Source: a virus
Lineage: Duplodnaviria > Heunggongvirae > Uroviricota > Caudoviricetes
IMG/VR virus record: IMGVR_UViG_2534682158_000018
Direction: 5' to 3' (one strand)
DNA length: 18,440 nucleotides
Within the stretch, counting starts at the first letter, position 1; each line of letters opens with the position of its first letter. Position numbers: made by a program. Positions 1 to 3,000 of the stretch are shown piece after piece.

Positions 1-3000
1 TTAACGGATCAACATCCAGATCAGCAGACACGCCACCACCGGCACAGCAAAATCCATCAGGCTTGCCACATCCCAAGCACGCGGATCAAAACCGCCCCAC
101 CACGGCATATTCATTCGCTTGCCATGCCCGAACATTTCGATCCAGCGATATTCTGCCTGGGTGTGTTCACGCGCAATGAAGAACGTACAACCGGCTATCG
201 CCCCGTAAATCCAGTTTCCGGTAAAAAGACCAATCAGTACCTGCGCAGCCACAGCACAAAGCGCATGAAGAAAAGGTGTTATATCCATTACTCCTCCTTT
301 ATCCGATATCGCTTTGGGAAGTTGATAACAACTTCAATTCTGACTCAAGTTCATCAACTCTTTCAGTCAGTTTCTGGATATGGTGAATCAGTGGAACAAC
401 CAGACGTTCGTACATTACACCTTCGGCAACAAGGCCATTGCTGGAAATAGCTTCAGGAGCATCATCTTCGTTAGCTGGTCGCCAGTGTACAAACTGAGGG
501 GCCATTTCTCCTACTTCCTCGGCAATCAATCCGTAGAATCCCCAGTCACGCCTGTCATTTTCGCATTGCGACCTGTACCACACAGGGCGCATCCTGAAAA
601 TGAGATCGGCGTGCTCTGAATCTATTGTCTCTACTGAATGTTTATAGCGGATAGACGATGTTGACCGCAGCACAGACGAAATTGCGGGGTCAGGATTAAG
701 ATAAAGGTTTGCCGCCGCTGTAGTCGTGCCCAACCCCCACAAATAAAACGCTTCACGGCCAGTCAGCGGGTAAAAATCTCCACCATAACGACCGCTTTCC
801 AGAGCGTTCACTTCCAGTTTGTTTTTCAGCTTATTATCAACTTCAGTTTTTGTGTATCTGGAGCTGATATCCTGCTTTGCACTGGTCATATCAGTCTGAA
901 GCGTTGATACTTTTCCGTTAATTGAGGAAATATCTTCCTTGGCTTTACTGACATCTCCCTTTAGCGTTTTGATGTCATCAGGAATTACTGTCGATGTAGC
1001 CATTTGTCTCCCTCACATCCAGCCACGAAGTTGATGCTCAACAACAATCGCGTATTTATCGAATATTGACGATTTTTTTGCATCATTAATGATGCGCACG
1101 CTTACAAAATATCCGTCCTCCTTAACACATACCGGCTCGCCATTTTCAGTCAGCTCTCCGGTTTCTTTGTACACGTTACCTATCACGTCAATAAGAATAT
1201 CATCCTGCATCGACTCGTCATCATAATAGCCAATACTCTCCATAAAGGCCGAAAAGTCGGCCCTGTCGGCAAATTTGAGTGTTAAATCTTTCATTAGATT
1301 GACTCCCCCACCTGAGCATCAGTCAATGCCTTGTGCCATATTCTGAAATTCCTGACATGACCAAATAAATGACGTAACCCGGCTGTAGTCTGGCCTCCAA
1401 TACGGATAATTGCGGTGTTCTGAATACAGGACCATGTGGTTTTTGTTTCGCTGGATATATGCCCGTTACTTACTGAGCACGTAGACTGCTCTGACTTTAC
1501 ACGCATCCCCATAACCATTTTTTCAAGCGATGCGTTTTCGTTTACCCGTCTGTTAGCTCCTCCAATATCGCAATAAGGAAATCCGTCGTAATCTGTTGAA
1601 CGACCGAAGCCAAGAATAATAGCCGCTCCGGTTTGATGACCGCCGGTATCAAAAACACGTGGCGCTGCATTTGGCGTTTTATACCAGTTCTTATGTACCT
1701 CACAAAGAACCGTAAAAGGAAGATTATAAAGATTATTCTTAATTGGAACTGTAACTATATCGCTTGCGCGGGTCGCCGCCGTCGCTCCTGATATAATAAA
1801 AGATGATACACAAGGCCCATCTTCTACTTGTGGGGTGGCCAGATAAATATAGTCACCAGATACGGTTGCCCCGCTCTGCTTAGGAGAATACTGTATCTGA
1901 GAGCCTATTTTTAACTCCCCATCAATTGCCTGAATTGTTGCCTCTGCAAAAATCCATCCGGTAGCTTCGTCCTTTCTGACTCTCGCTGTAATTCTTGAGG
2001 CAGCACCGCCTGTCATATTAATTTCAAGCGTTTGTGTATCAATATACGCATCACCAAGAAAAGTTGTTGCGCTACCGTCATATTTATCAAACCGGATACG
2101 CAACCTTACCTGCAGTTCTGTTTTAAAACGACATGAGGTTGTCACGTGTTTATTATCGCCTGAGACATCAACTGACTTTGTTGCAGCAATTGATGCCATA
2201 TTAATGGCTGAGGTTTGCCCAATCAGAGAATCGTTGCAGACAAACTTTCCATAGGTAAAACCAAAACTATCCTTCCCGGTTTCGGGAACATCCATATTTG
2301 ACGATCGCCCCCAACTGGCAGGGTTTTCCGAATTGAGCATGTAGTTTGTTCTTTGCCCCTCAATAAGCAGGCCATCACGTTCAAATCGTGGCTCGTCAAT
2401 GGCAGCCTCTGTCAGCACACCAGATTTGTTAATATAGGTTGCTTTCGATGCACGTTTAAACTTAACAATCTTGTCGCCAGGCATCGTTATTTCATCGTCA
2501 CCAATAACAATTTTTTTATATGATGGCGAAAAGCCCGTAATCATATCCAGCGAATCGTTAAATGGTATCCACACATCAGGCAGCGGCTGTAAGACATATT
2601 TATACGGCTCCGCAGCCTGGCTTGCGTACTCTCTGGCTGCATCTTCGCTTGCTTTAGCTGCCGTCTGGCTTGCTGCCGATGCTTTCGCTGAGTTCGCAGC
2701 CGCTGTTTCGCTCACCTTTGCGTTGGTTTCACTGGTTTTTGCTGCTTTTTGACTGTTAGCTGATGCAGTGGCAGAAGCAGCCGCCGCGCTTGCAGAACCG
2801 GCTGCCGCGCTCTCGCTTTGGGCTGCTGCAACCTGGCTGTTTTTTGCCGCAGTTTCACTGGCTTTAGCATTCGTTTCGCTGGTCTTCGCTGCCGTCTGGC
2901 TGGACTTTGCGTTAGTTTCACTCGTCTTCGCAGCTTTCTGGCTGTTAGCCGCAGCAGTTGCTGATCCAGCTGCTGAAGTCGCAGAACCGGCTGCCGCGCT

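What the first reader, a model, noticed from the sequence alone, without database searches (positions are those of the whole stretch)
299..1003. Mini fiber: 234-aa protein that is mostly an S74-type self-cleaving intramolecular chaperone domain
The S74 / endosialidase-chaperone domain normally sits at the C-terminus of long tailspikes or fibers, where it drives trimerisation and then cleaves itself off. Here the motif GLIAEEVGEMAPQFV and a candidate cleavage region near SSIRYKHSVETI are attached to only about 100 residues of coiled-coil-like sequence. After autoprocessing the mature product would be a short trimeric stub. That is unusual for a lambda-type siphovirus tail. It could be a second, short fiber or adaptor that docks on the Stf or J assembly, or a remnant of a longer fiber gene truncated by recombination.
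Basis: partly seen in the sequence, partly recalled or inferred. Interest (0 to 1): 0.6.

Follow-up and report, generated by a model that had tools for sequence, protein, structure and literature searches.

The report
Mini side-tail-fibre with self-cleaving chaperone
This is an intact, conserved 234-residue phage tail-fibre protein (short docking peptide, coiled coil, small tip, self-cleaving S74 chaperone domain) that forms the third gene of a tail-fibre cassette common in E. coli phages, so it is real but fairly ordinary.

Summary
The ORF at 299-1003 (minus strand, 234 aa) is real and under purifying selection (dN/dS 0.12-0.27). It has a genuine Peptidase_S74 / intramolecular-chaperone (IMC) domain at residues 116-234. 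Support: a Pfam hit above the curated cut-off, a Ser116/Lys121 dyad aligned to the MyRF and DT57C catalytic positions, and an AlphaFold model whose ten best PDB matches are all IMC structures.

It is not unusual. At least 740 of 5,426 complete E. coli genomes carry it, including BL21(DE3). It is the third gene of a conserved cassette: Stf head domain, then a ~93-aa ORF, then this gene. The cassette occurs in lambdoid prophages, T1-like phages and a 9g-like phage.

Anatomy:
- conserved N-terminal motif MATSTVIPxDIxxLK
- six clean heptads; homologs differ by indels of 7, 14 or 21 aa
- a ~65-aa tip
- the IMC

Residues 50-234 are homologous to the C-terminal end of one-piece lambdoid Stf fibres. 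The same slot can instead hold a 346-aa fibre with the same N-terminus.

Best reading: an accessory mini-fibre that trimerises through its own IMC, cleaves at Ser116 and docks by its N-terminus on a cassette-encoded partner. This is inferred, not shown. The pseudogene-remnant reading is rejected. A trans-acting chaperone role is not excluded.

The parts
299..1003 (-). Gene 3 of the cassette: 234-aa mini-fibre precursor (26.2 kDa), stop codon included.
   Evidence: ORF listing; 97% identical to PhiR49_1 XSB42986; PGAP name 'tail fiber domain-containing protein'; dN/dS 0.12-0.27.
959..1003 (-). Residues 1-15, MATSTVIPDDIKTLK: conserved N-terminal motif, inferred to be the docking peptide.
   Evidence: M1, T3, T5, I7, D10, L14 and K15 are invariant from lambdoid to T1-like homologs. 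The same N-terminus heads the 346-aa type-B proteins. It matches positions 1-32 of phrog_4563 and phrog_19752. It is absent from long fibres that share the C-terminal module.
857..982 (-). Residues 8-49: six heptad repeats, a predicted trimeric coiled-coil shaft.
   Evidence: Hydrophobic autocorrelation peaks at 7 and 14. Indels among homologs are 7, 14 or 21 aa. Profile similarity to the P22 gp26 needle and Lpp coiled coils.
659..856 (-). Residues 50-115: tip module that would become the C-terminal end of the mature protein.
   Evidence: Homologous to the segment just upstream of the IMC in one-piece Stf proteins P0188, P0183 and P0191. The last ~25 residues (GTTTxxANxY...RSTS) are conserved across the best 150 relatives listed. 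Not modelled as a monomer, pLDDT below 50.
641..658 (-). Residues 116-121, SSIRYK: predicted autocleavage site with Ser116 nucleophile and Lys121 base. Cleavage would occur N-terminal to Ser116.
   Evidence: K121 invariant and S116 and R119 nearly invariant. S67 and K72 of the trimmed sequence, which are S116 and K121, are invariant in the 30-sequence alignment. Aligned to DT57C LtfA SGIEYK and to MyRF (A)DLRAK. Pfam profile position 1 falls on residue 116.
302..658 (-). Residues 116-234: S74 / intramolecular-chaperone domain ending in a C-terminal helix (13.7 kDa, released after cleavage).
   Evidence: Pfam PF13884. AF2 pLDDT 74-94. Foldseek top hits 7dc3, 3gud and 3gw6. 191 BFVD matches at E <= 1e-3; those listed with a name are almost all S74/ICA or tail-fibre proteins.
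1008..1014 (-). Shine-Dalgarno GAGGGAG for gene 3, overlapping the TGA stop of gene 2.
   Evidence: Read directly from the sequence. A 9-12-nt SD-containing spacer is conserved across loci.
1013..1294 (-). Gene 2: 93-aa acidic protein (pI 4.4), always found between the Stf head and gene 3. Function unknown; candidate chaperone or adaptor.
   Evidence: phrog_1361, no Pfam hit. Co-occurs with gene 3 in all loci that have enough sequence. Restricted to Escherichia.
1297..2589 (-). Stf residues 362-792: the head domain, first element of the mobile cassette.
   Evidence: Homology to the T1-like and 9g-like lateral fibres starts at QPLPDVWIPFNDS. NCBIfam GTA_spike_fiber domain at residues 436-636. 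Alleles range 37-100% identity, with conserved ends at 362-445 and 761-792.
1294..3672 (-). Whole side tail fibre gene stf (792 aa from the GTG; phage_tail_N anchor at residues 3-133; Ala-rich shaft).
   Evidence: Pfam PF08400, E = 3.5e-67; phrog_1419; N-terminus matches PDB 9e7m 'Tail fiber protein'.

Best explanation
The ORF encodes a small accessory subunit of the side tail fibre, a 'mini-fibre'. It is the third gene of a mobile three-gene cassette: Stf head domain, a ~93-aa protein, then this gene.

Proposed mechanism:
1. Three copies associate through the C-terminal S74 intramolecular-chaperone domain (residues 116-234).
2. This nucleates trimer folding of the tip just upstream (residues 50-115) and lets the six-heptad coiled coil (residues 8-49) zip up.
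3. Ser116 and Lys121 cut the chain N-terminal to Ser116. The 13.7-kDa chaperone is released and a 12.5-kDa-per-chain trimeric stub remains.
4. The conserved N-terminal peptide MATSTVIPxDIxxLK anchors the stub to a partner encoded in the same cassette, either the conserved framework of the Stf head or the 93-aa protein. The result would be a branched or extended side fibre, as LtfB sits on LtfA in phage DT57C.

Shown here: the gene is intact, selected and widespread; the S74 sequence, catalytic residues and fold; the heptads; the cassette linkage; homology of residues 50-234 to the ends of one-piece Stf proteins.

Inferred only: trimerisation, cleavage, presence in virions, the docking partner, and any receptor-binding role.
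For: 1. Functional gene.
- dN/dS is 0.12-0.27 in both halves. Against the T1-like homolog, synonymous sites are saturated while dN is 0.3.
- Nearly full-length copies occur in at least 740 of 5,426 complete E. coli genomes. Two 90%-identity clusters hold 2,928 and 650 member sequences.
- The gene has its own Shine-Dalgarno sequence. No promoter- or terminator-like site falls between stf and gene 4 on the coding strand, and site counts in the region are at chance level.

2. S74 membership.
- Pfam hit above the curated cut-off.
- PDB profile hits with the Ser and Lys aligned.
- AF2 model whose ten best PDB matches are all IMC/ICA structures.

3. A fibre rather than a bare chaperone.
- Six clean heptads, with register-preserving indels of 7, 14 and 21 aa among homologs.
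- The same slot and the same N-terminus carry an alternative 346-aa protein with a gp34-like fibre domain and a canonical SDRDLK S74 domain.
- Residues 50-234 are homologous to the distal end of one-piece Stf proteins. P0188 has the same phage_tail_N anchor as this window's Stf: 118 of 132 N-terminal residues and 22 of the last 24 residues are identical.

4. Partner encoded in the cassette.
- The head, gene 2 and gene 3 travel together between lambdoid, T1-like and 9g-like phages whose fibre anchors differ.
- All 80 viral loci found through gene 2 with enough downstream sequence have gene 3 nine nucleotides downstream.

5. Precedent. DT57C LtfB docks on LtfA through its extreme N-terminus, and both carry PF13884 (PMC4728585). 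A fibre class with a coiled-coil N-terminus and an S74 C-terminus (TC7) has been described (PMC12143355).
Against: - There is no direct evidence that the protein is in virions. The only proteomics found for a carrier phage (swan01) detected five abundant proteins and not even the main lateral fibre.
- The docking partner is not identified. The N-terminal motif stays conserved while Stf heads diverge to 37% and gene 2 to 34% identity, so co-variation gives no pointer.
- The mature stub leaves very little surface for a receptor site. Its last ~25 residues are conserved across the best 150 relatives from the exhaustive profile search, of very different lengths.
- Type-A proteins are 91-100% identical while the heads are hypervariable. 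This protein is therefore probably not the host-range determinant.
- The tip did not fold in the monomer model.
- Some lab-propagated T1-like phages carry a frameshifted copy, so the gene is dispensable on K-12.
Confidence: 0.55

Rival explanations
1. Trans-acting assembly factor. The protein is not a lasting virion component. Instead it helps the Stf head trimerise or mature, alone or with the 93-aa protein. The Stf head has no IMC of its own and no Tfa-type chaperone. The factor is then cleaved and discarded. This is how the BASEL annotators labelled the T1-like homolog ('putative lateral tail fiber chaperone').
For: - The BASEL and other phage annotations use this label.
- The Stf head has no S74 domain, and no recognisable tail-fibre-assembly gene follows it in the window.
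- Gene 3 always accompanies this head type.
- Type-A proteins are conserved while the heads vary, as might be expected of a general helper acting on the conserved head framework.
Against: - Every characterised S74 domain acts in cis on the segment immediately upstream (established knowledge from the endoNF, T5 pb1 and MyRF work; not tested here).
- The alternative type-B occupant of the slot is a complete fibre with its own ~190-aa body.
- A chaperone has no evident need for a heptad shaft whose length varies in whole heptads.
- Residues 50-234 are the normal distal end of one-piece Stf proteins.
- By gene order, the small gene 2 is the likelier chaperone.
Confidence: 0.17
2. Structural placeholder or cap. 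Type A is a stripped-down allele. Its only job is to occupy the slot-3 docking site and stabilise the Stf-gene 2 assembly when no second receptor-binding body (type B) is carried. It does not bind a receptor itself.
For: - Very small and highly conserved mature part.
- Types A and B alternate in the same slot on the same head alleles.
- In DT57C, LtfA appears unstable without LtfB (PMC4728585).
Against: - Purely inferential.
- The tip region 50-90 differs substantially between lambdoid and T1-like versions and from the long-fibre versions (15-21 of about 50 residues identical). That would be compatible with a binding role.
Confidence: 0.2
3. Non-functional remnant of a longer fibre gene, truncated by recombination.
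For: - The best PHROG match aligns the protein to positions 1147-1384 of a 1,385-position fibre profile.
- Residues 50-234 match the C-terminal ends of 958-1,243-aa Stf proteins.
Against: - Purifying selection on both halves.
- Intact, at the same length, in hundreds of genomes and in virulent phages with compact genomes.
- Own Shine-Dalgarno sequence and start codon.
- An N-terminal motif and heptads that long fibres lack but that the type-B proteins in the same slot share.
Confidence: 0.03

Closest known systems
LtfB of T5-like phages DT57C and DT571/2 (branched L-shaped tail fibre; PMC4728585, PMC10713586)
   Same: A second, separately encoded fibre protein downstream of the main lateral fibre gene. 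It carries a C-terminal PF13884 autocleaving chaperone domain and is proposed to attach to the first fibre protein through its extreme N-terminus. The IMC of DT57C LtfA is the best PDB sequence match of this family.
   Different: The LtfB N-terminus was not compared directly, so sequence relatedness there is untested. There is no small intervening gene in DT57C. The DT57C paper presents LtfB as responsible for recognising E. coli HS3-104 cells. The mature product here is only about 115 aa and is highly conserved.
One-piece lambdoid side tail fibres with a C-terminal IMC (P0188 958 aa, P0183 1,243 aa)
   Same: Residues 50-234 are homologous to their C-terminal end: IMC 39 of 60 identical over residues 116-175, last 24 residues 22 of 24 identical in P0188. 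P0188 has the same phage_tail_N anchor as this window's Stf.
   Different: Those proteins are single polypeptides with anchor, Ala-rich shaft and T4 gp34/gp37-like repeats. Here the end module is on its own gene behind a different N-terminus, and the Stf proper ends in a GTA-spike-fibre-type head.
Type-B slot-3 fibre proteins (346 aa; phages Tritos, 2G7b and ESCO3; phrog_4563)
   Same: Same gene position, same N-terminal ~20 residues, C-terminal S74 domain, and the same head and gene 2 partners.
   Different: Type B has a ~190-aa globular or gp34-like body and a canonical SDRDLK motif (Pfam E = 5e-14). It shows no detectable similarity to the type-A C-terminal module: BLASTP with residues 86-234 found nothing in type-B ORFs.
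Endosialidase endoNF, T5 pb1, GA-1 gp12 and MyRF intramolecular chaperone (Peptidase_S74 / ICA) domains
   Same: Sequence family, Ser-Lys dyad with five-residue spacing, C-terminal position and predicted fold.
   Different: In those proteins the client is a large tailspike, a long fibre or a transcription factor. Here the client is a ~115-aa coiled-coil stub.
Lambda Stf/Tfa system
   Same: Same genomic position downstream of J, and the same phage_tail_N anchor on Stf.
   Different: No Tfa-family gene is present. The distal end is a different head type followed by gene 2 and the S74 mini-fibre.

Membership tests
Peptidase_S74 / intramolecular chaperone auto-processing (ICA) domain | Significant match to the family profile above the curated threshold | tested here: met
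   PF13884: E = 3.2e-5, 24.6 bits against a gathering score of 22, residues 116-172 on profile positions 1-57 of 58. The margin is small, but homologs score up to 35.9 bits and type-B proteins 52.8 bits. The profile also hits 8hqz_d (E = 9e-5) and 7dc3 (E = 6e-3).
Peptidase_S74 / intramolecular chaperone auto-processing (ICA) domain | Catalytic Ser-Lys dyad in an S-x-x-R/x-x-K motif at the start of the domain | tested here: met
   S116-S-I-R-Y-K121. K121 is invariant and S116 and R119 at least 90% conserved among 15 homologs. Both are invariant among 30 diverse relatives. They align to SGIEYK of DT57C LtfA and to (A)DLRAK of MyRF.
Peptidase_S74 / intramolecular chaperone auto-processing (ICA) domain | Characteristic fold, ending in a long C-terminal helix that forms the trimer bundle | tested here: met
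   AF2 model with pLDDT 74-94 over residues ~119-234 and a terminal helix. Foldseek: 7dc3 probability 1.00 (E = 2e-5), 3gud 0.96, 3gw6; all of the top 10 are IMC/ICA structures. 191 BFVD hits at E <= 1e-3. This is a monomer model, so the trimeric intertwining was not assessed.
Peptidase_S74 / intramolecular chaperone auto-processing (ICA) domain | Located at the extreme C-terminus of a trimeric fibre or spike protein | tested here: met
   The domain runs to the last residues of the ORF. In nearly all of the best 150 relatives listed, the match ends within a few residues of the C-terminus. The upstream heptads are compatible with a trimer.
Peptidase_S74 / intramolecular chaperone auto-processing (ICA) domain | Autocatalytic cleavage and release of the domain after trimer folding | not testable with these tools
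   Needs expression with SDS-PAGE or mass spectrometry. The prediction is 26.2 kDa giving 12.5 + 13.7 kDa.
Multi-protein (branched) lateral tail fibre, DT57C LtfA/LtfB type | Second fibre gene adjacent to the main fibre gene and co-inherited with it | tested here: met
   Three-gene order conserved in all informative loci.
Multi-protein (branched) lateral tail fibre, DT57C LtfA/LtfB type | Conserved N-terminal attachment module combined with exchangeable C-terminal bodies | tested here: met
   The MATSTVIPxDIxxLK motif is shared by type A and type B proteins and by the T1-like homologs.
Multi-protein (branched) lateral tail fibre, DT57C LtfA/LtfB type | Physical attachment of the second protein to the first in the virion | not testable with these tools
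   No multimer prediction was available. No solved structure contains the Stf head, gene 2 or gene 3. The swan01 proteomics was too shallow.
Lambda Tfa-type tail fibre assembly chaperone | Match to tail-fibre-assembly protein families | tested here: not met
   No Tfa family hit for gene 3 or gene 2 in Pfam, NCBIfam or PHROGs.

The most novel reading that the evidence does not exclude
An S74 'intramolecular' chaperone is used between molecules. In this reading the mini-protein docks through its N-terminal peptide on the conserved framework of the Stf head, possibly with the 93-aa protein. Its IMC-driven trimerisation would template or lock the three head domains. It would then cut itself, leaving a 115-residue plug in the fibre. 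That would be a new mode of action for this chaperone family and would explain why the gene always accompanies this head type.
Probability: 0.12. Interest if true: 0.65.

Novelty: new member of a known kind. Interest (0 to 1): 0.33.

Why it matters
The cassette (Stf head, 93-aa protein, S74 mini-fibre) sits in roughly one in seven complete E. coli genomes. It is also shared with virulent T1-like phages and a 9g-like phage, some of which are used as laboratory models. None of its three parts has been characterised experimentally.

If the mini-fibre really docks on the Stf assembly, these siphoviruses carry two-part side fibres with a swappable second subunit (type A or type B). That matters for predicting and engineering host range. 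The small size (26 kDa precursor, 12.5 kDa mature chain) would also make it a convenient minimal system for studying IMC-driven trimer folding and autocleavage.

As it stands, this is a well-supported but unsurprising addition to a known class of fibre proteins.

Tried and rejected
1. Full-length AF2 with a 15-sequence alignment gave pLDDT 49.8 and was unusable. It was repeated on residues 50-234 with 30 diverse sequences. The IMC then folded, but the tip stayed below pLDDT 50.

2. Virion proteomics for a carrier phage (swan01, PMC6563131, supplement 6) listed only five abundant proteins, so it is uninformative.

3. Stop-codon read-through fusion of gene 2 and gene 3, which are in frame and separated by TGA plus three codons. 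Rejected: other loci use TAA, one has a second in-frame stop, and KarlJaspers is out of frame. The spacer is simply a 9-12-nt Shine-Dalgarno region.

4. Two loci that seemed to lack gene 3 (L066 and L074). L066 runs off the contig end inside a type-B gene. L074 is inferred to do the same from its length.

5. The search for gene 2 outside Escherichia found only three loci among 185,579 species genomes, one of them a probably mis-binned contig. The large protein search listed only close homologs (81% identity or more), so no structure prediction was attempted for gene 2.

6. Gene 2 has no PDB or Pfam hit.

7. Literature searches for a functional study of the stand-alone 'chaperone of endosialidase' or 'lateral tail fiber chaperone' ORFs found none. 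No supplement text is held for the RBPseg paper, so I could not check whether its class TC7 includes a homolog.

8. Co-variation of the N-terminal motif with gene 2 or with the head gave no usable signal.
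Full report
**Observation**

The window carries a lambda-type tail module on the minus strand. It includes J (3727-7140), a side tail fibre gene stf (1294-3672, 792 aa), and ORFs of 93 aa (1013-1294), 234 aa (299-1003) and 95 aa (1-288). It starts with ATG and is preceded by GAGGGAG four nucleotides upstream. That Shine-Dalgarno sequence overlaps the TGA stop of the 93-aa gene, and the stf stop overlaps the 93-aa gene's start. No promoter- or terminator-like site falls between stf and the last ORF on the coding strand, and site counts in the region are at chance level. 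The genes therefore look like one operon.

**Is it an S74 protein?**

Yes, on four lines of evidence.
- Pfam PF13884 matches residues 116-172 over nearly the whole profile. The score is 24.6 bits against a cut-off of 22, E = 3.2e-5. The margin is thin, so I looked for independent support.
- A profile of 15 full-length homologs hits the chaperone region of DT57C LtfA (8hqz_d, E = 9e-5) and the MyRF ICA domain (7dc3, E = 6e-3).
- In those alignments Ser116 falls on the position that reads Ala in the 7dc3 chain and Lys121 on its lysine. The DT57C motif SGIEYK matches SSIRYK. That the Ala replaces catalytic Ser587 and that the Lys is Lys592 is from my memory of MyRF. Lys121 is invariant and Ser116 and Arg119 nearly so among close homologs. 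Both are invariant in a 30-sequence alignment reaching 32% identity.
- A first AlphaFold run on the whole protein was useless (pLDDT 49.8). A second run on residues 50-234 with the diverse alignment gave pLDDT 74-94 over residues ~119-234. Its ten best PDB matches are all intramolecular-chaperone structures: MyRF 7dc3 (probability 1.00), GA-1 3gud and endoNF 3gw6. Against predicted viral structures there are 191 matches at E <= 1e-3, and those listed with a name are almost all S74/ICA or tail-fibre proteins.

Cleavage N-terminal to Ser116 would turn a 26.2-kDa precursor into a 12.5-kDa mature chain and a 13.7-kDa released domain. The cleavage itself is inferred.

**Anatomy of the mature part**

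Residues 8-49 are six clean heptads with I/V/M and L/A/I at the core positions. The hydrophobic autocorrelation peaks at 7 and 14. Homologs differ here by indels of exactly 7, 14 or 21 residues, as expected for a coiled-coil shaft that must keep its register. The profile also touches the trimeric coiled coils of the P22 gp26 needle and Lpp.

Residues 50-115 are not coiled coil and were not modelled as a monomer. The extreme N-terminus, MATSTVIPDDIKTLK, is the most conserved part of the mature region. M1, T3, T5, I7, D10, L14 and K15 are invariant from lambdoid to T1-like versions.

**It is common, not unusual**

- Megablast finds a copy covering at least 80% of the gene in 740 of 5,426 complete E. 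coli genomes, always annotated 'tail fiber domain-containing protein'. One of them is the Qin prophage of BL21(DE3).
- Two 90%-identity clusters hold 2,928 and 650 member sequences.
- It is present in the sequenced lambdoid phages PhiR49_1 (97% identity), IdasGreatGrand and PhiR55_1.
- It is present at about 57-60% identity in many virulent T1-like Drexlerviridae. There it is labelled 'putative lateral tail fiber chaperone', 'chaperone of endosialidase' or 'hypothetical'.

**It is a functional gene**

Pairwise dN/dS among four lambdoid copies is 0.12-0.27 overall, and below 0.4 in each half. Against the T1-like copy, synonymous sites are saturated while dN is 0.3.

**The cassette**

In every record examined the gene order is fibre, then a ~90-93-aa ORF, then this gene. 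I anchored a search on the 93-aa gene and analysed 80 IMG/VR loci. Every locus with enough downstream sequence has an ORF nine nucleotides downstream that begins MATSTVIPxDIxxLK. One of two apparent exceptions was checked and runs off the contig end inside the gene; the other is inferred to do the same.

That ORF comes in two forms.
- Type A (227-234 aa) is the form in this window.
- Type B (345-346 aa) has the same N-terminus, a ~190-residue body with weak similarity to the T4 gp34 fibre domain, and a canonical SDRDLK S74 domain with Pfam E = 5e-14.

Types A and B occur on the same Stf head alleles.

Comparison with the T1-like (KarlJaspers) and 9g-like (ESCO3) lateral fibres shows that homology starts at Stf residue ~362 (QPLPDVWIPFNDS) and runs to the end. 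The N-terminal anchors and shafts differ. The mobile unit is therefore the head domain plus the 93-aa gene plus gene 3. The 93-aa gene is essentially confined to Escherichia.

Among lambdoid loci the three components differ sharply in variability:

| Component | Pairwise identity | Median |
|---|---|---|
| Stf head | 37-100% | 45% |
| 93-aa gene | 83-100% | 95% |
| Type-A gene 3 | 91-100% | 96% |

The head keeps conserved ends (residues 362-445 and 761-792) around a variable core.

**Relationship to long fibres**

An exhaustive profile search found 5,882 cluster representatives at E <= 1e-3. In nearly all of the best 150 listed, only profile positions ~85-232 match, at the extreme C-terminus of proteins of about 100 to 1,284 aa. 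Only one 50%-identity cluster matches over the full length.

The closest long relatives are one-piece lambdoid side tail fibres. P0188 (958 aa) has the same phage_tail_N anchor as this window's Stf (118 of 132 residues identical). It ends in a segment homologous to residues 50-234 of the mini-protein: IMC 39 of 60 identical, tip 15 of 49, and the last 24 residues 22 of 24. This explains the PHROG result that aligned the protein to positions 1147-1384 of a 1,385-position fibre profile.

The gene thus looks like the terminal 'tip plus chaperone' module of a one-piece Stf joined to the slot-3 docking N-terminus and a short coiled coil. It is a recombinant, but a maintained one.

**Mechanism proposed**

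In all characterised cases S74 domains fold the segment immediately upstream in cis (knowledge of the endoNF, T5 pb1 and MyRF work, not tested here). The simplest reading is that the protein is its own client. The chaperone trimerises, the tip and coiled coil fold, Ser116 and Lys121 cut, and a ~115-residue trimeric stub remains.

The cassette moves between phages with unrelated fibre anchors. The stub's partner should therefore be encoded within the cassette: either the conserved head framework or the 93-aa protein. The conserved N-terminal peptide shared by types A and B is the obvious docking element.

The closest precedent is DT57C. There LtfB attaches to LtfA through its first ~45 residues, and both carry PF13884 (PMC4728585). 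The BASEL paper notes that lateral fibres of small siphoviruses may be built from one or several proteins (PMC8594841). A fibre class with a coiled-coil N-terminus and an S74 C-terminus has been described from structure predictions (PMC12143355).

The type-A protein is probably not the main specificity determinant. It is highly conserved while the heads vary. Its last ~25 mature residues are conserved across the best 150 relatives listed, which come from proteins of very different lengths. An accessory or stabilising role is at least as likely as receptor binding.

**Rivals**

- Trans-acting chaperone for the Stf head. This cannot be excluded, because the head has no IMC or Tfa and gene 3 always accompanies it. 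It is disfavoured by the type-B fibre in the same slot, by the register-preserving heptad indels, and by homology to the normal distal end of one-piece fibres.
- Pure placeholder or cap. This is a variant of the main model.
- Pseudogene remnant. This is rejected on selection, prevalence, the gene's own translation signals and the specific N-terminus.

**Dead ends**

- The swan01 virion proteomics was too shallow.
- Read-through fusion of the in-frame 93-aa gene and gene 3 is not supported.
- No diverse homologs, Pfam hit or PDB hit were obtained for the 93-aa protein.
- No paper was found that tests the function of these ORFs.

**Verdict**

This is a new, uncharacterised member of a known kind, namely S74-bearing accessory fibre subunits of multi-protein lateral fibres. 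Interest is modest.

Noticed in passing
window 1013-1294 (-): A 93-aa acidic protein (pI 4.4; phrog_1361; no Pfam, NCBIfam or PDB match) is always wedged between the Stf head and the S74 gene. It is essentially restricted to Escherichia phages (3 loci among 185,579 species genomes). By position it is a candidate Stf-head chaperone or adaptor, but its function is unknown.
   Followed up: partly
window 1297-2589 (-), Stf residues 362-792: The Stf ends in a ~430-aa head, not a lambda-type Tfa-dependent tip. The head has an NCBIfam 'GTA/phage head spike fiber' domain and an ending (FGHVRNFRIWHKALTDAQVGE) that looks LamG-like to me from memory. Alleles range 37-100% identity with conserved ends. 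The virulent Nonagvirus ESCO3 carries a nearly identical head, which points to recent exchange between temperate and virulent phages.
   Followed up: partly
window 1-288 (-): A 95-aa protein with several hydrophobic stretches, judged by eye and annotated 'putative membrane protein' in phage 21 (phrog_1443). It follows gene 3 and has a strong AAGGAGG Shine-Dalgarno sequence. It is also present in lambdoid phages that lack the S74 gene (phage 21, 4A7, ev017) and absent from the T1-like cassettes examined, so it is a separate lambdoid element of unknown function.
   Followed up: no
window 3687-3706 (-): A strong terminator-like hairpin (8 bp, 6 G-C pairs, followed by a T-run) lies between the J stop (3727) and the stf start. 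The window has no lom gene here, unlike PhiR49_1 and PhiR47_1. Terminator-like site counts over the scanned region are at chance level.
   Followed up: no
window 3666-3672 (-): The stf ORF as listed starts at a GTG (MSMAVQ...). The Pfam anchor domain and homologs start at the ATG two codons later (MAVQISG...), which is probably the true start.
   Followed up: no
L003 3850-4588 (phage AV105); also orkinos and JLBYU19: Some lab-propagated T1-like phages carry the homolog split in two. In AV105 a single frameshift near residue 83 is visible. The other two were only seen as two-piece matches. This could be a sequencing error or loss on K-12 hosts without O-antigen, reminiscent of the stf frameshift in lambda PaPa.
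   Followed up: partly
L008 (E. coli BL21(DE3) 1583605-1586962): The Qin prophage of BL21(DE3) carries this cassette: an Stf head truncated by IS3, then the 93-aa gene, the 234-aa gene and the 97-aa membrane-protein gene. As far as I recall, K-12 has stfQ/tfaQ at this position.
   Followed up: no
L090 (contig JAGZNZ010000051.1, labelled Collinsella sp. MAG): A 2.8-kb contig binned into a Collinsella metagenome-assembled genome encodes a 95%-identical copy of the E. coli phage 93-aa gene. It is most likely a mis-binned coliphage fragment.
   Followed up: no
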